Shown: positions 4,588 to 13,236 of the stretch, in pieces
How positions within the stretch are numbered: the stretch's first letter is position 1
Layout: every line of letters starts with the position of its first letter
Source: Nitrospira japonica
GTDB lineage: Bacteria; Nitrospirota; Thermodesulfovibrionia; Thermodesulfovibrionales; SM23-35
Assembly (NCBI GenBank): GCA_020725385.1
Contig: DYFC01000043.1
Location: 1-13,462, forward strand
Reading direction: 5' to 3'
Length of the DNA stretch: 13,462 bases
Program-made: the position numbers and the translations under genes
The notes under the pieces: model-generated
Databases searched by the model: none
What the model was told of the DNA's origin: nothing
The model's input: the letters and a program-made list of their open reading frames with translations, nothing else

Positions 4588-4743
4588 ATCTCGAAAATTG
4601 TAAAAGAGGTTATCAACTCGGGAGGACGAGTTATTCTTGAAGGATTACCAGTAGGATAGGAGTTATGATAAAAAGAAAAGGTATAAAGAAACCTTTATGA
4701 AAACATGCTTGAAGTGAGTAAAAGGTATAGGGGCAATAATTGA
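4588..4743 (+). pseudogene. Decayed small gene (probable former antitoxin) upstream of the PIN gene
   Basis: One frame reads (I)SKIVKEVINSGGRVILEGLPVG*, then several stops, then RNLYENMLEVSKRYRGNN*. Its TGA (4741-4743) overlaps the PIN TTG start (TTGA), as in coupled TA pairs. Confidence 0.45.
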
Positions 4744-4763
4744 AAATTTACCTTGATACAAAT
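4700..4763 (+). repeat. 64-bp direct repeat, copy 1 (contains PIN RBS, start and first 8 codons)
   Basis: AAAACATGCTTGAAGTGAGTAAAAGGTATAGGGGCAATAATTGAAAATTTACCTTGATACAAAT matches 5491-5554 at 63/64. Confidence 0.95.
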
Positions 4764-5201
4764 GTTATCTGTAGACCCTTTGATGATCACACTCAAGAAA
4801 GGATAGCTAAAGAGATAACTGCTATCAGCAAGCTTTTTGTTTATATCAGCAGTAGGATGTTTGATGTTGTCATATCAGATATAGTCCTTTCTGAAATAAC
4901 GCTTATCAAGAATCCGATTAAAAGAGAACTGGTTGAATTACTTGTAACGGAGATTACCACAAAAAGAGTTTCGGTTGGGAATTGTGAAATTACGATTGCC
5001 GATTTACTTCAAGATAAATGTAAAATAAATGACTATATGGATGCATTGCATGTTGCGTCTGCTGTAACAGCTAACTGTAAATACCTTGTTACATGTGATG
5101 ACGACTTAACCAGAAAAGCGGACTTTATTAAAAAAGAACTAATAAAGTCTGCATATAAAATAGAAATAGTAAACCCTTTAGACTTGATAAAGGAGGATTA
5201 A
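4740..5201 (+). CDS. PIN-domain (VapC-like) ribonuclease toxin
   Basis: N-terminal IYLDTNV, central SEI, DALHVASA and LVTCDDDL give the PIN acidic residues; TTG start. Confidence 0.88.
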   Translation: MKIYLDTNVICRPFDDHTQERIAKEITAISKLFVYISSRMFDVVISDIVLSEITLIKNPIKRELVELLVTEITTKRVSVGNCEITIADLLQDKCKINDYMDALHVASAVTANCKYLVTCDDDLTRKADFIKKELIKSAYKIEIVNPLDLIKED

Positions 5202-5204
5202 AAG

Positions 5205-5438
5205 ATGGTTAAAAAACTTCAGGAAGATATAATTGAAGAAGGGTTCAGTATCCTAAAAAAACACCTTGGAATTACCAAGACAGCTATATTTCTGGAGATG
5301 ATAGGGAGAGGACAAGGTGATAGCATTGAGGAGATAGAATCTAAAACTAAGAAATTTTCTAAACAAGAGGCAATTAAATTTATTGAAAAGTGCAAGAAAG
5401 AAAGAGCAGATTTATGGAACAAAATAAAGGTAGCTTAA
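5205..5438 (+). CDS. Small protein, probable antitoxin of the PIN toxin
   Basis: 77 aa, 3 bp after the PIN stop, strong AAGGAGG RBS. EEGFSILKKHLGITKTAIFL...G.GDS resembles small partners encoded downstream of PIN genes (recognition, not a search). Confidence 0.65.
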   Translation: MVKKLQEDIIEEGFSILKKHLGITKTAIFLEMIGRGQGDSIEEIESKTKKFSKQEAIKFIEKCKKERADLWNKIKVA

Positions 5439-6476: not shown

Positions 6477-7464
6477 TTTTTTTATCCAGTTCCGGTGTGA
6501 TAATTAAATTGTTTTCCTGATCAATTATCACTCCATATAATCCATTTTCTTCAAGAAATTTTAAACCCTTTTCATGTCCCAAAACAAATACTCCGGTAGC
6601 CAATGCATCTGTCATGGAATTTTCTTTTCCAATAACTGTAACGCTTTTACATGAATCAGCAGGCTTTCCTGTTTTAGTATTAAGTATATGATGATATTTT
6701 TTACTATCTAATATAAAAAATCTCTGGTAATCACCGGATGTTGAAATAGAAGAATCAGAAAGTTCAATAGCAGCAATAATATCATTTTCACCACTATTTG
6801 AATCGGGATCTTTAATGCCAATTTTCCATAATTTCTTGTCGGGTTTTGTACCGAAGGCATGTATTTCACCGCCAATAGCTACAATACCGGACTTAATCCC
6901 GTGACTTTTTAAGATTTCAACTGCTTTGTCTGAAGCATAACCTTTGGTGATTCCTCCAGTGTCAATAAGCATTCCTTTCTTTTTCAAAAAAACAGTTCGT
7001 TTTATTTTGTCAATTATAATATTTTTGTAATTAACGTACTCAAGCTTTTTTGCAATTTCTTCATCAGAAGGCTTGATTTTTTTTGAAAAGTCATATAAAG
7101 AACTTATTGCACCTATTGTTATATCAAAAGCACCTTTTGTTTTTTCAGATATATAGAATGCTTTTTCTAATATTTCAATTACAGTACTGGATACCTTAAC
7201 CGGCAATATACCTGCATTTTTATTAATCAAAGATATTTCGCTTTTATCTGAATAAAAATCAGTAAGTTGTTCAATTTTTTCAATTTCATTGAAAGCTGCT
7301 TTTATTGCTTTTTCAGCATTTTCTTTTGATTCTGATACAGCAGTTATTGTAACTACTGTATTCATATATAGTTGGGTATATTTGTAAATATGTTCTTTCT
7401 CCGGGGTACAGGAGTTTGTATGAAAAATAATAATGGTTAGGAGCAATAATAAATATCTCTTCAT
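6436..7464 (-). CDS. apbE: FAD:protein FMN transferase (flavin-trafficking lipoprotein)
   Basis: Signal peptide ending in Cys (TNSC); [63 protein letters not shown]. Confidence 0.95.
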
Positions 7465-9959
7465 CTTAGTTTTTTCTTCAGAAATTTTCCTGTATATGAA
7501 TCAGGATTAGCGCTTACTTCTTCTGGTGTCCCGGAAGCAACGACATAGCCGCCTTCATCACCACCCTCAGGACCTAAATCAATAATATAGTCTGCTGATT
7601 TTATAACATCAAGATTATGCTCGATAACTATTACGCTATTTCCTGCGTTTGTAAGTTGATTTATTACTTCAAGAAGTTTCTGTATATCAACAAAATGAAG
7701 TCCTGTAGTTGGTTCATCAAGAATGTAGATTGTATGACCCTTTGGTTTTTTGCCAAGTTCTTTTGATAACTTAATCCTCTGTGACTCACCACCGGATAGA
7801 GTTGAAGCAGGTTGTCCTAATTGAAGATACCCGAGTCCTACATTTTCAAGTACTTCAAGTTTATGGCGCAGTTGGGGTATAGCGGTAAAGAATTGTTTGG
7901 CTTCTGATACAGTCATTTGTAATACTTCAGCGATATTTTTATCTTTATATCTTATTTCAAGAGTTTCTTTATTGTATCTTTTGCCTTTACAGGTATCACA
8001 TGGTATATAAGCATCCGGGAGAAAATGCATTTCTACCTTAATCAATCCATCACCTTTGCAGGCTTCGCATCTTCCAGAGGGAAGATTGAAACTGAATCTT
8101 GAAGCAGTATATCCTCTTATTTTTGAATCAATAACATTTGAAAAGAGTTCTCTAATGAAGGTGAACGCTCCGGTATAAGTAGCAGGATTTGATCTTGGTG
8201 TTTTGCCGATTTGAGATTGGTCAACGCTGATAACTCTGTTAATTTTTTCAAGACCTTTTATTTCTTTATGTTTCCCCGGAATAACCTTGCTTTTATAAAG
8301 TTCTTTACAAAGTGCTTTATATAATACTTCTATTATCAGAGTGCTTTTACCCGAACCTGATACACCTGTTATGCATGTAAAAATACCAAGCGGAATTTCC
8401 ACATCAATGTTTTTGAGATTAAATTCTGATGCGCCGATTATTTTTATGGAATCCAGAGGTCTTTTTCTTATAATTGGAGTATCAATTGAAAGATAGTCGC
8501 TCAAATATTGACCTGTGATAGAATTTAGGTCTTTTTCTATATCCTGTGGTTTTCCGCATGATACAACCCATCCTCCTCTATTTCCTGACCCGGGTCCCAT
8601 ATCTACGATATAGTCTGCCCAGCGTATTGTTTCCTCGTCATGTTCTACTATGATCACAGTATTCCCTGCATCGCGTACTGCTTCGAGACTTTCAAGAAGT
8701 TTTTTACAATCACGCGGGTGCATTCCGATACTTGGCTCATCAAGTATATAAAGAACTCCTGATAAAGAAGAACCAAGCTGTGTAGCAAGCCTGATTCTCT
8801 GAGCCTCACCACCTGAAATAGAAAGAGAAGATCTGCTTAATGTTAGATAACCCAATCCAACTTTTTCAAGAAATTCAAGGCGGTCTTTTATTTCTTTTAT
8901 GATACGTGAAGATATGATCTTTTCACGCTCGGTTAATTCAAGATTATTAATAAAAGACAAAGCACCTGTTACATTTTTATTTGATAATGAAATGATATTT
9001 TCACCTTGAATAATTATACTCAGTGATTCTTTTCTAAGCCTTGAACCATTGCAGACCCTGCATGTTTTATAACTTATATCAGGGTCGAAGTCATCTTCAT
9101 TAATATTTTCGATTCCTAAGCCATTACACGCAGGACATGCACCCTGGCGGCTATTAAAGGAGAAAAACATCGGGTTGATCTCAGGAAAGTTGATTCCACA
9201 TTTTGTACATACCGCGGTTTTTGAATAAAGAATATCTTTGTTTTCTTTGAGCAAATTTATGATTACTATATCAGAATATCTTAGGGAAGTTTCTATAGCT
9301 GTTTTCAATTGACGGTCTATTCCGGGTTTTATAATTAATCTGTCAATTATAATTTCAATTGTATGCCTTTTATGTTTGTTTAAAGTAATATCATGGGTAA
9401 TATCAGTTATCTGTCCATCAATTCTTGCTCTTATAAAACCTTCATTACGCATTTCTCTGAGTTCTTTCTTATACTCTCCTTTTCTGTCTCTGACTATTGG
9501 AGAAAGTATCTGTATTTTGCTACCTGGCTCAAGTGACATTATCGATTGTATAATGTCTTCAGACTCCTGTTTTTTAACAAGAGAACCGCATTTATAACAG
9601 GTTTGTTTACCAATCCTTGTAAAAAGAACTCTGAGATAATCGTAAATTTCTGTTATAGTTCCTACTGTTGAACGCGGACTTTTAGTTACTGTTTTCTGGG
9701 TGATTGATATTGAAGGTGAAAGTCCCTCGATGTAGTCAACATCCGGTTTGCTCAATTGTTCTATGAATTGTCTTGCATATGCAGAAAGGCTTTCCACATA
9801 ACGTCTCTGTCCCTCTGCATAAATTGTATCAATGGCAAGGGAAGATTTTCCGGATCCGGAAGGCCCTGTAATAACAGTTACCGAGTCTCTCGGGATAGAG
9901 ACATCAATATTTTTGAGATTATGTTCACGAGCTCCCTTTATAACTAAGTATTCTTGCAT
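7461..9959 (-). CDS. uvrA: Excinuclease ABC subunit A (832 aa, short form)
   Basis: GAREHNLKN, two Walker A motifs ([18 protein letters not shown]), [11 protein letters not shown], signatures [11 protein letters not shown] and [11 protein letters not shown], two LDEP Walker B motifs, Zn-finger CxxC pairs. Confidence 0.97.
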
Positions 9960-10161: not shown

Positions 10162-10962
10162 ATGACTAACAATATTTCTTACAAAGATATGCAGGAAATT
10201 CTAATGGATGAACTCCGTCTTTTACATTATCCGGTTGCATTGAAATTTATTTTCAAAGAAGAAGAACTTGAAGACTTTGTCAAGAATGTATCATATTATG
10301 AGCCTGTGAAACCTTTAACTTTTTGCCAGATTGAGATCGCTGCCCGCATGAAGAAACAGACAGTCCTTGTGATGAGAGGAAATATAGGTTGCAGCAACGC
10401 AGCTTTTGTATTTGGATGGAAATCATACGACGATGCTGAAGTCAAGAGTCATCTAAAATATGTTAAAGACTGGGATCAAGCAGTAAGGTTTGTAAAGACA
10501 AAGCCTCGCCTTCCTGAAGGCGCAATGAAAGCATTAATTGTTTCACCACTTGCCGATACATATTTTCAACCTGATACAGTTCATTTTTATTGCGACAATA
10601 TGCAGGCTTATCATCTTTTGGTCGATTACATGTCTGCTATGGATGTGCACCCGCTTCATCCAAACTTAACTATAAATTCAGCAGCGTGCGGTGGAAATGT
10701 TTTCTCATATCTTGAAAAGACAGCGAATCTTATTACAGCCTGCAGCGGCACGTACAATTCGGGAAAAATGGAGAGAGGTGAAATCAATGTGATAATACCG
10801 GGTGAGCATATTGAAGCAACGGTACAAAGACTACTTGACCGTATTAAGAATCTTGGGAGTTCTTCTCTTACGAGGCCGGGTGATCATTTTCCAGGGGCAG
10901 ATATATGCAAAAATTGTCCGATGATTGTATTTAGAAAGAAGAAAGATAGTATTGTCTCCTGA
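10162..10962 (+). CDS. DUF169-family protein (Cys-rich)
   Basis: PVALKF, TFCQ..IAAR, IGCSNAAFVFG, SAACG, CSGTYNSG, E..VIIP pattern plus C-terminal CKNC; AAGGAG RBS. Confidence 0.75.
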   Translation: MTNNISYKDMQEILMDELRLLHYPVALKFIFKEEELEDFVKNVSYYEPVKPLTFCQIEIAARMKKQTVLVMRGNIGCSNAAFVFGWKSYDDAEVKSHLKYVKDWDQAVRFVKTKPRLPEGAMKALIVSPLADTYFQPDTVHFYCDNMQAYHLLVDYMSAMDVHPLHPNLTINSAACGGNVFSYLEKTANLITACSGTYNSGKMERGEINVIIPGEHIEATVQRLLDRIKNLGSSSLTRPGDHFPGADICKNCPMIVFRKKKDSIVS

Positions 10963-11087
10963 TGACAGAAGATAAAATGGATAAGGGTTATGGTAATATT
11001 AATTGTTTTGCGAAAATCAAGGATAGGCGAGATTTTATAATTCCATACACTTTGTTTATCCTTTTTGAATTTTTAATACCACGTAAG

Positions 11088-11109
11088 AAATTCCATACCT
11101 ATGGAATTT
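11088..11109. promoter_or_regulatory. Perfect 10-bp inverted repeat, candidate operator
   Basis: AAATTCCATA-CC-TATGGAATTT, 77 bp upstream of the DUF1573 gene; extra half-site AATTCCATAC at 11039-11048. Confidence 0.5.
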
Positions 11110-11186
11110 ACAATGATTTTGAGGACGAATATGTAAAACATAAAGTGTGAAGATTTTTTTATAGATTATGATATAAAATATGTATT

Positions 11187-11555
11187 ATGAAAAAAATACT
11201 TCTACTCATAATCTTGATAGTTTTTCCTGCAATCTGTTTTGCACAGCCTTCGATTGTTTTTGATAAGGAAAGACAGGATTTTGGAGAGGTTAAGAAAGGT
11301 ACAGAACTTGAATATACTTTCGAATTTGTCAACAATGGAAATGAAGAATTAATTATATCAAAAATAATTACATCATGAGGATGTACGGCAGCTATGGCTA
11401 GTTCGAGCCATATTAAACCAGGGGAGAAAGGAAAAATCAACACTAAAGTTGATACAGAGGGAAGAGGGGGGTATCTTCATAAACCTATTGCAGTTCATTC
11501 AAATGATCCTCAAAGACCTATTGTTCACCTTTATATTACCGCGATATTAAGATAA
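11187..11555 (+). CDS. Exported DUF1573-type Ig-like protein, predicted selenoprotein (122 aa, Sec at codon 64)
   Basis: Signal peptide (..AICFA/QP), then DFGEVKKG..LEYTFEFVNNGNEELIISKIITS-[TGA]-GCTAAMASSSHIKPGEKGKINTKVDTEGRGGYLHKPIAVHSNDPQRPIVHLYITAILR-TAA. The family motif is SCGCT, and typical downstream motifs (I.PGE.G.I, V.SNDP) lie past the TGA. Confidence 0.88.
11379..11412 (+). promoter_or_regulatory. Candidate bacterial SECIS element
   Basis: Perfect 7-bp stem TATGGCT (11393-11399) / AGCCATA (11406-11412), 6-nt loop AGTTCG with G at position 2, and 21 nt between the TGA and the loop. Confidence 0.75.
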
Positions 11556-11564
11556 ATAATTATC

Positions 11565-11810
11565 ATGTTAAAAGAAAGCTGTCCTGGAAGCAGGGAAATA
11601 AGAACACCTTATCCAGAAGAAATAAGATGCTTCTGGTGTGATAGAATAAATGAGATTTGGTCGGATGAAGTCGAAATAACATGTAAAAATTGTAAAAAAC
11701 AGATAACCCGTGATATGAAGCCTTCCTGTATTGAATGGTGTCCGGTAGCAAAAGAATGTATTGGAGTCGAAAAATATGAAAAGCTCATGAAACGTAAAAA
11801 AGTCGAATGA
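11565..11810 (+). CDS. Small Cys-rich, probably metal-binding protein (8 Cys in 81 aa)
   Basis: Pattern CPG..CxxC..EIWSDE..CxxC..SCIEWC..AKECIG; starts 9 bp after the read-through stop of the upstream gene. Confidence 0.8.
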   Translation: MLKESCPGSREIRTPYPEEIRCFWCDRINEIWSDEVEITCKNCKKQITRDMKPSCIEWCPVAKECIGVEKYEKLMKRKKVE

Positions 11811-11813
11811 CTC

Positions 11814-12185
11814 TTAAGACTTTATGAATCTTATTTTAAATGGATAAGAAAAACTTCCGCCCTGATACGATCTAAGAGAGGCAAAGATAATACATATCGC
11901 ATTGATAAATGCAATTATAAAGAGTAAAAACATCCCTATTCTGATATGTATAAACAATGCTGCAAATAAAGCATATAAAGTCATAGATAGCTGAAAATTT
12001 AATGCTTCGATTCCCTGTTCTTTAACAAAAGGATAAATGTTTCTTTTCAAAAGCCAAATGATTAAAGGTCCTGCTATGTGTCCAAAAGGAATTCCCAACA
12101 AACCAATTAAAGCACTAAGATGACAGGCAGATGCCCATATTCTTGCCTGTTTATCCATTTCAATGATTGGTTCTTGATTATTCAT
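11814..12185 (-). CDS. DUF4870-family membrane protein
   Basis: WASACHLSAL, GPLIIWLLK, FV.EQG.EALNFQLS and G..FSYPF.IRFIK motifs; ATGA overlap with the upstream gene. Confidence 0.88.
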   Translation of the reverse strand: MNNQEPIIEMDKQARIWASACHLSALIGLLGIPFGHIAGPLIIWLLKRNIYPFVKEQGIEALNFQLSMTLYALFAALFIHIRIGMFLLFIIAFINAICIIFASLRSYQGGSFSYPFKIRFIKS

Positions 12186-13036
12186 GAACTTTTGTTATTT
12201 GAGCGGCAGAGAGCGTCCGCTTCTTTTTTTAATAAGTGTGCAAGATGTATATCAATCCTGCTTTTTCTTAAAAAAGTATCTTCATCCATATCAGCAATAT
12301 CTTTTGCAAAAACAATATCATTTCGAAAAAGCATTTCAAGAGCATTTTTATTAATAGATGAAAGAATTGTAACAGGATATAGTTTTTTTGTCTCTATAAT
12401 TTTTTCGAGGCTTTCTTTTTCCGGATATTTCCAGCTAACTATTTTCAGCCCCACACATTCTGCATAACGCAAGGCATCATCTGAACAACGGGTGTTTGTC
12501 ACAAGCCAACCCTGCTGTGATGGAAAGTGATTGTCAGGTGATGATTCAAAAGCTTTTTTAATATCATTGAATCTTGAATGTACATAGAGCGCTGTCTTAA
12601 CATCTGTAGAATTTCCTGAATTACTATGGTATTTGCATTCAATTATTACAATATTATTTTCTTTTTTCGCTAATATATCAACTTCGTGAGAAACGCAATA
12701 GCCTTGAATTATTTTCCCTACTTCGGTAAAGTAGCCATAGGCTCTTAATATTCCGGCCACATATTTTTCGAATTGAAAACCCGCAGGACCAAGTGAATAT
12801 ATTGCTTTTTTTATAGAATAACGCATGTCAGAGACTTTGCTATATTGTCGTAATAATTTTTTGGCTATTTTAAAAATGTGTCTTGTGTGGGATGAGGGGG
12901 TAATTTGAGTTTCAATCTTTTTGGCAATTTCAAGGGCAACATCTTCAGTAGCACCTGATCTTATGAGAGAATTAACGAGTTTGTTTCTATCGAATTCCTC
13001 TAATTTCCCTGAAGCTTTAATTACAGTTTGAGCCAT
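12182..13036 (-). CDS. ATP-cone domain plus Mrr-like PD-(D/E)xK endonuclease domain protein
   Basis: N-terminal VIKASGKLEEFDRNKLVNSL (ATP cone); GFQFEKYV, HEVDILA, IECKYH and LVTNTR (Mrr-type nuclease core). Confidence 0.85.
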   Translation of the reverse strand: MAQTVIKASGKLEEFDRNKLVNSLIRSGATEDVALEIAKKIETQITPSSHTRHIFKIAKKLLRQYSKVSDMRYSIKKAIYSLGPAGFQFEKYVAGILRAYGYFTEVGKIIQGYCVSHEVDILAKKENNIVIIECKYHSNSGNSTDVKTALYVHSRFNDIKKAFESSPDNHFPSQQGWLVTNTRCSDDALRYAECVGLKIVSWKYPEKESLEKIIETKKLYPVTILSSINKNALEMLFRNDIVFAKDIADMDEDTFLRKSRIDIHLAHLLKKEADALCRSNNKSS

Positions 13037-13044
13037 AAGTATGA

Positions 13045-13122
13045 TGGCGGGGCGGACGGGACTTGAACCCGCGACCTCTGGCTTGACAGGCCAGCGTTCT
13101 GACCAAGCTGAACTACCGCCCC
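13045..13122 (-). tRNA. tRNA-Asp(GTC)
   Basis: Reverse complement folds fully: acceptor GGGGCGG/CCGCCCC, anticodon arm CTGGC-CTGTCAA-GCCAG, T-loop TTCAAGT, encoded GCCA end. Confidence 0.98.
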
Positions 13123-13160
13123 AAAAAGTTATATAGCTGAGACAAAATTATCAGTTCTAA

Positions 13161-13236
13161 TGGTAGGCGGAACAGGACTTGAACCTGTGACCCCAGCCTT
13201 GTAAGGGCTGTGCTCTCCCAGCTGAGCTATCCGCCC
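13161..13236 (-). tRNA. tRNA-Val(TAC)
   Basis: Reverse complement GGGCGGATAGCTCAGCTGGGAGAGCA-CAGCC-CTTACAA-GGCTG-GGGTCACAGGTTCAAGTCCTGTTCCGCCTACCA, 76 nt with encoded CCA. Confidence 0.98.

What the first reader, a model, noticed from the sequence alone, without database searches (positions are those of the whole stretch)
11187..11555. Hidden exported selenoprotein: DUF1573-type Ig-like domain with U-G-C in place of C-G-C
Seen: the 63-aa ORF stops at TGA 11376-11378 in the context ITS-TGA-GCT, and the same frame continues 58 sense codons to TAA 11553-11555, giving a complete 122-aa protein with a signal peptide. Known: DUF1573-type domains carry a conserved (S)CGCT motif followed by I.PGE.G.I and V.SNDP, all present after the TGA. 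Inference: the TGA is decoded as selenocysteine, giving a UxC redox or metal-binding centre in a small secreted Ig-like protein of unknown function. Gene callers would truncate or miss it. I cannot confirm whether this family is already catalogued as a selenoprotein.
Basis: partly seen in the sequence, partly recalled or inferred. Interest (0 to 1): 0.92.

Follow-up and report, generated by a model that had tools for sequence, protein, structure and literature searches.

The report
Exported DUF1573 selenoprotein gene, known family
This is a real gene for a small exported protein whose internal TGA is read through (most likely as selenocysteine), but its family is already listed as a selenoprotein family, so it is a new member rather than a new kind.

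Summary
ORF 11187-11378 ends at TGA 11376-11378, and the same frame runs 58 more codons to TAA 11553-11555, giving a 122-aa protein. Pfam DUF1573 matches residues 23-118, across the TGA (E 1.9e-25).

The TGA is conserved. It sits in the same column in 20 of 20 orthologue loci from related genomes and in 38 of 56 countable loci from a public genome scan, all with Nitrospirota titles. The other 18, from other phyla, have TGC or TGT there.

A 7-bp hairpin with loop AGUUCG lies 15 nt after the TGA. It shows covariation, and it is present with TGA (34 of 38 loci) but not with Cys codons (0 of 18). dN/dS downstream of the TGA is 0.075.

The genome has selA, selB and tRNA-Sec, and at least six other TGA-containing genes of known selenoprotein types.

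There is one caveat. selD was not found in this genome or its closest relative, and a Sec-like tRNA-Cys(GCA) sits next to a second selB. Cys insertion at this UGA therefore cannot be excluded.

The family is already catalogued: OS_HP2 = pfam07610, motif UxC (2007, 2008), and "DUF1573, UGC" in 2022 and 2026 reviews. Its function is still unknown. Gene callers did split this gene in two. Verdict: a new member of a known kind.

The parts
11187..11555 (+). Complete recoded coding sequence: 122 codons including one in-frame TGA, plus the TAA stop. It encodes an exported single-domain DUF1573 protein.
   Evidence: Orthologues are colinear over residues 1-122.
11187..11243 (+). Putative Sec-pathway signal peptide, residues 1-19, with cleavage after C-F-A.
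   Evidence: Read from the sequence by eye: MKK, a hydrophobic run, then A-x-A followed by QP. The pattern [AS]-[FY]-[AS]-Q-P is shared by most of the 20 orthologues. AF2 models residues 2-17 as a helix outside the beta domain. No predictor was run.
11376..11378 (+). In-frame TGA, residue 64: the predicted selenocysteine codon.
   Evidence: It is in the same column in 20 of 20 orthologue loci and 38 of 56 scan loci. Homologues in other phyla have TGC or TGT there, 18 of 56.
11382..11384 (+). TGT, Cys66: the partner of U64 in the U-G-C motif. U64 and C66 are the only Sec/Cys residues in the mature protein.
   Evidence: C66 and G65 are invariant in alignment A2. Apart from U64 and C66, Cys occurs only in the signal peptide.
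11393..11412 (+). SECIS-like hairpin. The 5' arm is 11393-11399 (TATGGCT), the loop is 11400-11405 (AGTTCG, with G11401 and U11402), and the 3' arm is 11406-11412 (AGCCATA).
   Evidence: Predicted by folding. It is conserved with covariation in 20 orthologues. It is present in TGA loci and absent in Cys loci.
11553..11555 (+). TAA, the true stop codon.
11565..11810 (+). Downstream 81-aa ORF with 8 Cys, starting 9 nt after the stop. It may be co-transcribed, and its function is unknown. The link to the selenoprotein gene is weak.
   Evidence: It lies next to the orthologue in 10 of 20 loci at 51-93% identity and in 10 of 39 TGA scan loci, but in 0 of 18 Cys loci. It has no Pfam or NCBIfam family. 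The Atlas places it in Nitrospirota-only clusters.

Best explanation
Positions 11187-11555 are one gene, not two. It encodes a 122-aa precursor of a small exported protein made of a single DUF1573 (HYDIN/PapD-like Ig-fold) domain.

The proposed mechanism has three steps.

1. Recoding. Translation passes the UGA at codon 64 because a hairpin 15 nt downstream (11393-11412, apical loop AGUUCG) acts as a bacterial SECIS element. This element recruits SelB with charged tRNA-Sec, so selenocysteine is inserted. This step is inferred from conservation, covariation and the presence of selA, selB and selC.
2. Export. A signal peptide (residues 1-19) sends the protein across the inner membrane. The mature domain of about 103 aa then sits in the periplasm. 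This step is inferred.
3. Active centre. The only Sec/Cys residues in the mature protein are U64 and C66, in a U-G-C turn between two beta strands. Both side chains can face the same way. I take this to be the working centre. My estimates within this explanation are about 55% for a selenol/thiol to selenylsulfide redox couple, used in periplasmic thiol or redox chemistry. This would be comparable to the Ig-fold carrier domain of DsbD, which I recall rather than tested. About 30% is for a soft-metal or metalloid binding site. All of this step is inferred.

The gene belongs to the DUF1573/OS_HP2 'UGC' selenoprotein family, which is already described and whose biochemical function is still unknown.
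For: - Pfam DUF1573 covers residues 23-118 across the TGA, E 1.9e-25. NCBIfam 'OS_HP2 family (seleno)protein' is the best NCBIfam hit at 81.4 bits.
- In 40 related genomes, 28 have a match carrying exactly one in-frame TGA. In the 20 loci fetched, the TGA is in the same column.
- The genome-contig scan gave 57 loci. Of the 56 countable ones, 38 have TGA, all with Nitrospirota, Thermodesulfovibrionales or Dissulfurispiraceae titles. The other 18, from other phyla, have TGC or TGT. The 57th locus, L092, is frameshifted but also has TGA before GCAAVVASSS.
- In a quick ML tree of 56 rows, the TGA rows form one side of a branch with SH-aLRT 99, so one change is enough.
- Hairpin covariation: 89.5% of 133 cells are paired, and 4 of 7 pairs show double changes. 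The covariation score is 0.323 against 0.208 +/- 0.020 in shuffles (0 of 500 reach it). Slid controls give 13.5-41.4% paired.
- Hairpin and codon go together. At least 6 of 7 pairs form in 34 of 38 TGA loci and in 0 of 18 Cys loci. Loop GUU is present in 38 of 38 against 2 of 18.
- dN/dS between G000 and G005 is 0.109 upstream and 0.075 downstream of the TGA, at dS about 0.8.
- Recoding machinery: selA at 628 bits, two selB copies over the cut-off, and tRNA-Sec(UCA) at 72 bits.
- TGA is a normal stop in this genome: it ends 206 of 991 ORFs of at least 300 aa.
- Six other genes have a Pfam domain spanning an in-frame TGA: two FdhA-like, a peroxiredoxin, a DsbC-like thioredoxin (UPFC), a DsrE-like protein and an Fe-S protein.
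- The AF2 model has pLDDT 91.3 and is an 8-strand beta sandwich. The best PDB match by fold is 2qsv, TM 0.75.
Against: - selD (TIGR00476) was not found in G000, which is 96.6% complete. The three weak hits are ThiL, HypE and PurM-like proteins. tblastn with a same-genus SelD found nothing better.
- The slot that holds selD in G002 and G003 is an AT-rich spacer of about 750 bp in G000 and in its closest relative G005. Both flanks are assembled inside contigs.
- A Sec-like tRNA with a GCA anticodon and discriminator U lies next to a second selB. Such tRNAs are reported to put Cys at SECIS-directed UGA (passages of PMC13582414; PMC5389517).
- Taken alone, the hairpin of this sequence is not unusually stable: z = -0.97, and 39 of 200 shuffles fold as well.
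- The NCBIfam score of 81.4 is below the curated cut-off of 100.
- The TGA loci all come from one clade, so the TGA-versus-Cys contrast in hairpin pairing is not a set of independent observations.
- No experiment shows selenium in this protein, and nothing here tests its function. The genomic context (uvrA, a Cys-rich ORF) gives no functional clue.
Confidence: 0.8

Rival explanations
1. The gene is read through as described, but in this organism the UGA is decoded as cysteine. The decoder would be the Sec-like tRNA-Cys(GCA) (selC*/tRNAReC type) and the second SelB encoded beside it, because selenophosphate cannot be made without selD.
For: - selD was not found in G000 (96.6% complete) or in its closest relative G005 (98% complete).
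- The syntenic selD slot is empty in both, with assembled flanks.
- selC* has a GCA anticodon, discriminator U plus CCA, and an 8-bp acceptor stem, and it lies directly beside a selB copy on C15. G005 has the same pair.
- selB* is under purifying selection, omega 0.095.
- UGA-to-Cys recoding by such tRNAs is reported in passages of PMC13582414. Opal suppression by a related selC* tRNA-Cys(UCA) in E. coli is described in PMC5389517, section 17.
Against: - selA (omega 0.078), canonical selB (omega 0.074) and tRNA-Sec are all intact and under strong purifying selection between G000 and G005, at dS about 0.6. That is not expected if Sec synthesis had been lost in their common ancestor.
- Both genomes are draft MAGs, so a gene on an unbinned contig cannot be excluded.
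- selD was found in 38 of the 40 other related genomes.
- G001 has selC*/selB* as well as selD, so the two systems normally coexist.
Confidence: 0.15
2. The TGA is a nonsense mutation or sequencing error. The locus would then be a pseudogene, or two separate small genes of 63 aa and 53 aa.
For: The public protein collection holds the two halves as separate predicted proteins. An ATG at 11394 could start the second half.
Against: - TGA is in the same column in 20 of 20 orthologue loci and in 38 of 56 scan loci, down to about 43% protein identity.
- One Pfam domain spans the TGA.
- omega downstream of the TGA is 0.075.
- Each half alone would be half of a beta sandwich.
Confidence: 0.02
3. The organism uses a changed genetic code in which TGA is a sense codon everywhere (for example Trp or Gly).
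For: Several genes in the genome carry in-frame TGA.
Against: - TGA ends 206 of 991 long ORFs.
- selA, selB and other genes have no internal stops.
- The aligned residue in homologues is Cys, not Trp or Gly.
- The in-frame TGAs found sit in known selenoprotein families.
Confidence: 0.01

Closest known systems
OS_HP2 / 'DUF1573 domain-containing protein' selenoprotein family (Zhang and Gladyshev 2007, PMC1976440; 2008, PMC2398784; reviews PMC9312934 and PMC13188914; NCBIfam NF041425)
   Same: It has the same Pfam domain (pfam07610) and the same U-x-C (UGC) motif, with Sec in place of the first Cys of C-G-C. It is predicted in the same way, from an in-frame TGA plus a downstream hairpin, and its function is equally unknown.
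   Different: The described members came from deltaproteobacterial worm symbionts and ocean metagenomes. This one belongs to a Nitrospirota (Thermodesulfovibrionales) clade. All 20 members scanned from that clade match NF041425, but the window's copy scores 81.4 against a cut-off of 100, and the best E-value among the 20 is 1.5e-24. I could not see the papers' supplements, so Nitrospirota members may already be listed there.
Cys-type single-domain DUF1573 proteins of Ignavibacteriota, Bacteroidota, Verrucomicrobiota and other phyla
   Same: They share the domain, the S-C-G-C-T-A motif in the same column, and a similar size.
   Different: They have TGC or TGT instead of TGA and no hairpin: 0 of 18 have at least 6 of 7 pairs. 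They are only 30-47% identical.
PDB 2qsv, an uncharacterised two-domain protein of Porphyromonas gingivalis
   Same: It is the best match by fold (Foldseek E 1.2e-7, TM 0.75) and the only match by sequence profile (E 1.9e-4).
   Different: The aligned domain has no C-G-C motif at the corresponding place. No function is assigned to it.
N-terminal Ig-fold domain of DsbD, a periplasmic thiol:disulfide carrier (recalled, not tested)
   Same: It is a periplasmic Ig-like beta sandwich that carries a redox-active pair of Cys residues. It serves only as a model for how this protein might work.
   Different: No sequence or fold match was sought or seen among the Foldseek matches listed. The Cys spacing differs, and DsbD has no Sec. 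This is an analogy, not membership.
selC* tRNA-Cys / tRNAReC with a second SelB (Mukai et al. 2016, PMC5389517; Vargas-Rodriguez et al. 2018, recalled and as cited in PMC13582414)
   Same: The genome's C15 tRNA is Sec-like (RF01852, 57.7 bits), with a GCA anticodon and discriminator U, and it lies beside a selB copy. The paper reports selC* in Thermodesulfovibrio and Nitrospirae.
   Different: The paper describes adjacency to a second selB for two deltaproteobacterial groups, whereas here it is seen in a Thermodesulfovibrionales MAG. The paper found complete selABCD sets in isolate genomes. Here selD was not found.

Membership tests
Bacterial selenoprotein gene (SECIS-directed UGA recoding) | In-frame TGA aligned with Cys in homologues | tested here: met
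   38 loci have TGA and 18 have TGC or TGT in the same column, out of 56 countable loci among 57.
Bacterial selenoprotein gene (SECIS-directed UGA recoding) | Protein-level conservation and purifying selection on both sides of the TGA | tested here: met
   The alignment of 20 orthologues has invariant residues on both sides of the TGA. omega is 0.109 upstream and 0.075 downstream.
Bacterial selenoprotein gene (SECIS-directed UGA recoding) | Stem-loop shortly after the UGA with a conserved G in the apical loop. The definition is recalled from bSECISearch-type models and echoed in the Figure 5 legend of PMC1976440. | tested here: met
   A 7-bp stem starts 15 nt after the TGA. Loop positions G26, U27, U28 and C29 are invariant. 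Covariation is seen, and the hairpin is absent from Cys forms. The single-sequence energy is unremarkable, z = -0.97.
Bacterial selenoprotein gene (SECIS-directed UGA recoding) | selA, selB and tRNA-Sec in the same genome | tested here: met
   selA scores 628.5 bits, selB 384 and 358 bits, and tRNA-Sec(UCA) 72 bits.
Bacterial selenoprotein gene (SECIS-directed UGA recoding) | selD (selenophosphate synthetase) in the same genome | tested here: not met
   The best TIGR00476 hit is 69 bits against a cut-off of 125. The hits are ThiL and HypE. tblastn with a same-genus SelD found nothing. The assembly is 96.6% complete, so absence from the organism is not shown.
Bacterial selenoprotein gene (SECIS-directed UGA recoding) | Selenium shown in the protein (75Se labelling or mass spectrometry) | not testable with these tools
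   This needs an experiment.
Pfam PF07610 DUF1573 | Score over the gathering threshold | tested here: met
   89.2 bits against 26.1, covering profile positions 1-95 of 98.
NCBIfam NF041425 OS_HP2 family (seleno)protein | Score over the curated cut-off of 100 bits | tested here: not met
   81.4 bits. All 20 of 20 orthologues match, but the best E-value is only 1.5e-24. This looks like a related clade outside the model's trusted range.
NCBIfam NF041425 OS_HP2 family (seleno)protein | U-x-C motif in a pfam07610 domain | tested here: met
   U64-G65-C66. The family is listed as pfam07610 with motif UxC or UGC.
Sec-pathway exported protein | N-terminal signal peptide with a signal-peptidase I site | tested here: inconclusive
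   MKK, a hydrophobic run and C-F-A|Q-P were read by eye. The pattern is conserved in orthologues, and the AF2 helix at residues 2-17 lies outside the domain. No signal-peptide predictor was available.
tRNAReC / selC* tRNA-Cys (side finding) | At least 80 nt, a UCA or GCA anticodon and discriminator U (criteria quoted from PMC13582414) | tested here: met
   96 nt, GCA anticodon, discriminator T followed by CCA, 8-bp acceptor stem. RF01852 scores 57.7 bits.

The most novel reading that the evidence does not exclude
The small lineage formed by this genome and its closest relative may really have lost selD. It still keeps, under purifying selection, at least seven SECIS-bearing UGA genes, selA, selB and tRNA-Sec, plus a tRNA-Cys(GCA) of Sec shape with its own SelB. 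If so, there are two possibilities. Either its whole 'selenoproteome', including this exported U-G-C protein, is translated with cysteine at UGA without selenium. Or selenium is activated for SelA by a route that does not use SelD.
Probability: 0.2. Interest if true: 0.7.

Novelty: new member of a known kind. Interest (0 to 1): 0.32.

Why it matters
For annotation, the gene is real but is stored as two fragments. A whole Nitrospirota clade of orthologues falls below the NCBIfam cut-off, so these selenoproteins are probably being missed systematically.

For biology, the TGA has been kept across an order-level clade, down to about 43% protein identity. That argues that Sec at this position matters in an exported Ig-fold protein whose function is unknown. 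The only reactive residues in the mature protein are U and C, two positions apart. This makes it a tractable target for working out what DUF1573 C-G-C domains do.

The apparent lack of selD beside a selC*/selB* pair is a side lead on how UGA recoding behaves when selenium activation is missing.

Tried and rejected
- Paralogues in the genome: none were found by tblastn.
- Rfam: nothing matched in 10900-12000 at E <= 1. This is no evidence either way, because I know of no general bacterial SECIS model there (recalled).
- Promoter and terminator scan of 10900-12300: 5 promoter-like sites against 7.2 expected, and 0 terminators. This was uninformative.
- Genomic context as a clue to function:
  - uvrA lies divergently upstream in 24 of 39 TGA loci and 0 of 18 Cys loci.
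  - The 81-aa Cys-rich ORF lies downstream in 10 of 39 TGA loci.
  - DUF4870 is present in 5 of 39 and the Mrr-like gene in 6 of 39.
  - DUF169 is present only in G000.
  - A crude ORF clustering of all flanks was dominated by antisense ORFs of uvrA and showed no shared partner, so I dropped it.
- Near-length protein search: 5 hits among 27 candidates, at 30-41% identity. No full-length close orthologue is stored, which fits truncation at the TGA.
- Profile search of 1.84 billion representatives: 41,706 hits at E <= 0.001, topped by giant multi-domain proteins. This shows only that the domain is very common. Predicted proteins stop at TGA, so it says nothing about Sec forms.
- PDB by profile: only 2qsv, and without the C-G-C motif.
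- Genome-wide screen for other read-through genes. A lenient filter gave 175 candidates, and hairpin and Cys filters reduced them to 14 plus 7. I fetched 13 loci and scanned 10 of them against Pfam.
  - In 6, a domain spans the TGA.
  - In 1 (Fer4/CCG protein, U271), domains lie on both sides but do not span it.
  - 3 had no family.
  - L123, L125 and L126 were fetched but not scanned.
- selU (TIGR03167) was not found in G000.
- The careful tree search did not finish in 288 s, so the tree cited is the quick one.
- The Vargas-Rodriguez 2018 paper is not in the library. I cite it from recall and from passages in PMC13582414.
- Supplementary files of the papers were not opened. They may list Nitrospirota members of OS_HP2 or of selC*.
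- 'No paper on the function of DUF1573' rests on one full-text search for DUF1573/PF07610, which returned 4 papers.

Full report
**Observation.** The window reads ACA TCA TGA GGA TGT ACG at 11370-11387.
- The ORF from ATG 11187 stops at TGA 11376-11378 after 63 codons. The same frame stays open for 58 more codons to TAA 11553-11555.
- With TGA read as U, the product is a 122-aa protein with the motif T-S-U-G-C-T.
- At the genome's GC content of 34.7%, 58 open codons have a chance probability of about 0.013.
- Pfam DUF1573 (PF07610) matches residues 23-118 in one stretch, at 89.2 bits against a cut-off of 26.1. The related HYDIN/VesB-like Ig model matches residues 21-118.

**Relatives and the TGA.** The evidence comes from related genomes, a public genome scan and a tree.
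- Related genomes:
  - Of 40 related genomes, 28 have a match that carries exactly one in-frame TGA.
  - One genome (G033) has only a weak match without a stop, and 11 have none. Three further weak matches without a stop are second hits to long proteins.
  - In the 20 loci fetched, the TGA is in the same column, within [ST]-U-G-C-[TA]-A. The proteins are colinear from the first Met to the end.
- Public genome scan:
  - A scan of one genome per species gave 57 loci.
  - I could read the codon in that column in 56 of them. It is TGA in 38, all titled Nitrospirae, Nitrospirota, Thermodesulfovibrionales/-ia, Nitrospiraceae or Dissulfurispiraceae.
  - It is TGC or TGT in 18, titled Ignavibacteriales, Bacteroidota, Pseudomonadota, Nitrospinota, Chthoniobacteraceae, Phycisphaerales, Hinthialibacteria or unclassified.
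  - The 57th locus (L092, Nitrospirota) has two frameshifts, but TGA still precedes GCAAVVASSS.
- Tree and source organism:
  - In a quick ML tree of the 56 rows, the TGA rows are one side of a branch with SH-aLRT 99. One Cys/Sec change therefore suffices. The root is not established and the careful search did not finish.
  - By its best matches, the window comes from a Thermodesulfovibrionales MAG.

**SECIS.**
- Fifteen nucleotides after the TGA lies a 7-bp hairpin, 11393-11412, with loop AGUUCG.
- On its own it is not exceptional: z = -0.97, and 39 of 200 shuffles fold as well.
- Across 20 orthologues (19 distinct rows) it is conserved.
  - 89.5% of 133 cells are paired.
  - 4 of 7 pairs show changes on both sides.
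  - The covariation score is 0.323 against 0.208 +/- 0.020 in shuffles, and 0 of 500 shuffles reach it.
  - Slid controls give 13.5-41.4% paired. RNAalifold finds the same helix.
- Several of the covarying positions are synonymous third positions paired with first positions of I/L or S/D/G codons, as the alignment shows.
- The hairpin goes with the codon. Among 38 TGA loci, the mean is 6.29 of 7 pairs, 34 have at least 6 pairs, and all 38 have GUU in the loop. Among 18 Cys loci, the mean is 2.83, none has at least 6 pairs, and 2 have GUU (L092 was dropped).
- The TGA loci are one clade, so this contrast is not a set of independent events.

**Selection.** Between G000 and its closest relative G005 (84-85% protein identity), dN/dS is 0.109 for codons 1-63 and 0.075 for codons 65-122, at dS about 0.8. 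The part after the TGA is translated.

**Machinery, and the caveat.**
- The genome (2.46 Mb, 71 contigs, 96.6% complete) has the following.
  - selA at 628.5 bits.
  - Two selB genes over the cut-off.
  - A tRNA-Sec(UCA) at 72 bits.
  - A second Sec-like tRNA at 57.7 bits.
- The second tRNA has a GCA anticodon, discriminator U plus CCA and an 8-bp acceptor stem. It lies directly beside the second selB on contig C15.
- That tRNA meets the criteria used for tRNAReC/selC* (passages of PMC13582414). selC* is reported from Thermodesulfovibrio and Nitrospirae (PMC5389517, section 17 and passages).
- selD was not found.
  - The best TIGR00476 hits are ThiL (276 bits to its own family), HypE (448 bits) and a PurM-like ORF.
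  - tblastn with the SelD of same-genus G002 gave nothing better.
- selD was found in 38 of the 40 other relatives but not in G005 (98% complete) or G024. 39 of the 42 listed matches carry a TGA of their own.
- In G002 and G003, selD lies divergently next to orf85-yedF-csd. In G000 and G005 that slot is an AT-rich spacer of about 750 bp after mtaB.
- The gene on the other flank of selD in G001 and G002 maps inside G000 contig C48.
- So selD is missing from its usual, fully assembled place in two genomes.
- Against a real loss of Sec synthesis: between G000 and G005, selA (omega 0.078), selB (0.074) and selB* (0.095) are all under strong purifying selection. G005 also keeps tRNA-Sec, selA and both selB copies.
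- I cannot resolve this. Either selD sits on unassembled or unbinned DNA, or the lineage lacks it.

**The genome still uses UGA recoding.**
- TGA ends 206 of 991 ORFs of at least 300 aa, so it is an ordinary stop codon here.
- A screen for read-through genes followed by a Pfam scan of 10 candidates found 6 with a domain spanning the TGA.
  - Two FdhA-like molybdopterin oxidoreductases.
  - A peroxiredoxin (FTFVU).
  - A DsbC-like thioredoxin (UPFC).
  - A DsrE-like protein.
  - An Fe-S protein.
- One further candidate has domains on both sides of the TGA, and 3 have no family.

**The protein.**
- AF2 with the 20-sequence alignment gives pLDDT 91.3 and pTM 0.79. The model has a helix at residues 2-17 and eight strands.
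- The best PDB match by fold is 2qsv (P. gingivalis, unknown function, TM 0.75). Next come ASH/PapD-like and VesB/VesC Ig domains.
- By sequence profile, only 2qsv matches, and its aligned domain lacks C-G-C.
- In the 20 orthologues, U64, G65 and C66 are invariant. Apart from U64 and C66, Cys is seen only in the signal peptide.
- U64-G-C66 lies between strands 55-62 and 67-71.
- From this I infer an exported Ig-fold domain whose working centre is the U/C pair. A redox couple seems more likely than a soft-metal site. Nothing here tests that.

**Known or new.**
- OS_HP2 was named as a new selenoprotein family in the Olavius symbiont metagenome: two TGA sequences, in the delta1 and delta4 symbionts (PMC1976440, section 12).
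- The GOS study lists 'OS_HP2, pfam07610, UxC' with 2 Sec sequences and 354 Cys homologues (PMC2398784, passage of its table).
- NCBIfam has a model for it (NF041425). The window's protein scores 81.4 against a cut-off of 100, and all 20 of 20 orthologues match it, with a best E-value of 1.5e-24.
- The public protein collection holds this gene as two fragments of 63 and 53 aa and holds no close full-length orthologue.
- The finding is therefore a correct detection of an unannotated member of a known selenoprotein family. It belongs to a Nitrospirota clade that current models under-call.

**Limits.**
- No experiment was possible.
- There was no signal-peptide predictor and no access to model coordinates or to the papers' supplements.

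Noticed in passing
G000 contig C15:19055-23099 (L102 5055-9100); not in the window: A selenium-related cluster lies here: orf85, yedF (TIGR03527, 210 bits) and a cysteine desulfurase/Sec-lyase-like gene. They are followed on the other strand by a second selB and a Sec-like tRNA-Cys(GCA) with discriminator U. G005 has the same layout.
   Followed up: partly
G000 whole genome; L102 4315-5055 and L111 about 6815-7587: selD was not found in G000 or G005. Its usual slot next to orf85-yedF, as in G002 and G003, is an AT-rich spacer of about 750 bp. Even so, selA and selB have dN/dS of about 0.08 between the two genomes.
   Followed up: partly
G000 C27:32846-35563, C27:11709-14783, C45:33359-34081, C62:14927-15703, C31:58754-59065, C31:134473-135621, C23:3663-4982: These are other genes with an in-frame TGA inside or between Pfam domains: two FdhA-like genes, a peroxiredoxin, a DsbC-like thioredoxin, a DsrE-like gene, an Fe-S protein and a Fer4/CCG protein. 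They are probably the rest of the selenoproteome.
   Followed up: partly
window 11565-11810 (+): An 81-aa ORF with 8 Cys starts 9 nt after the selenoprotein gene. It is 51-93% identical in 10 of 20 orthologue loci, so it is better conserved than the selenoprotein itself. It has no Pfam or NCBIfam family, and its Atlas clusters are Nitrospirota-only.
   Followed up: partly
window 10162-10962 (+): A DUF169 (COG2043) gene lies between uvrA and the selenoprotein gene in this genome only. It is absent from the other 19 orthologue loci, so it looks like an insertion.
   Followed up: no
relatives G001-G040: selD is itself TGA-containing in 39 of the 42 matches listed. G001, G004, G006 and G038 have two selD matches each.
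   Followed up: no
L092 2401-2768: This Nitrospirota orthologue has two frameshifts. It is either a pseudogene or a product of long-read assembly errors, and it still carries the TGA.
   Followed up: no
window 4740-5201 (+) and 5205-5438 (+): A PIN-domain protein gene is followed directly by a 77-aa ORF. This may be a toxin-antitoxin pair.
   Followed up: no
window 13045-13236 (-): tRNA-Asp(GTC) and tRNA-Val(TAC) genes lie here.
   Followed up: no
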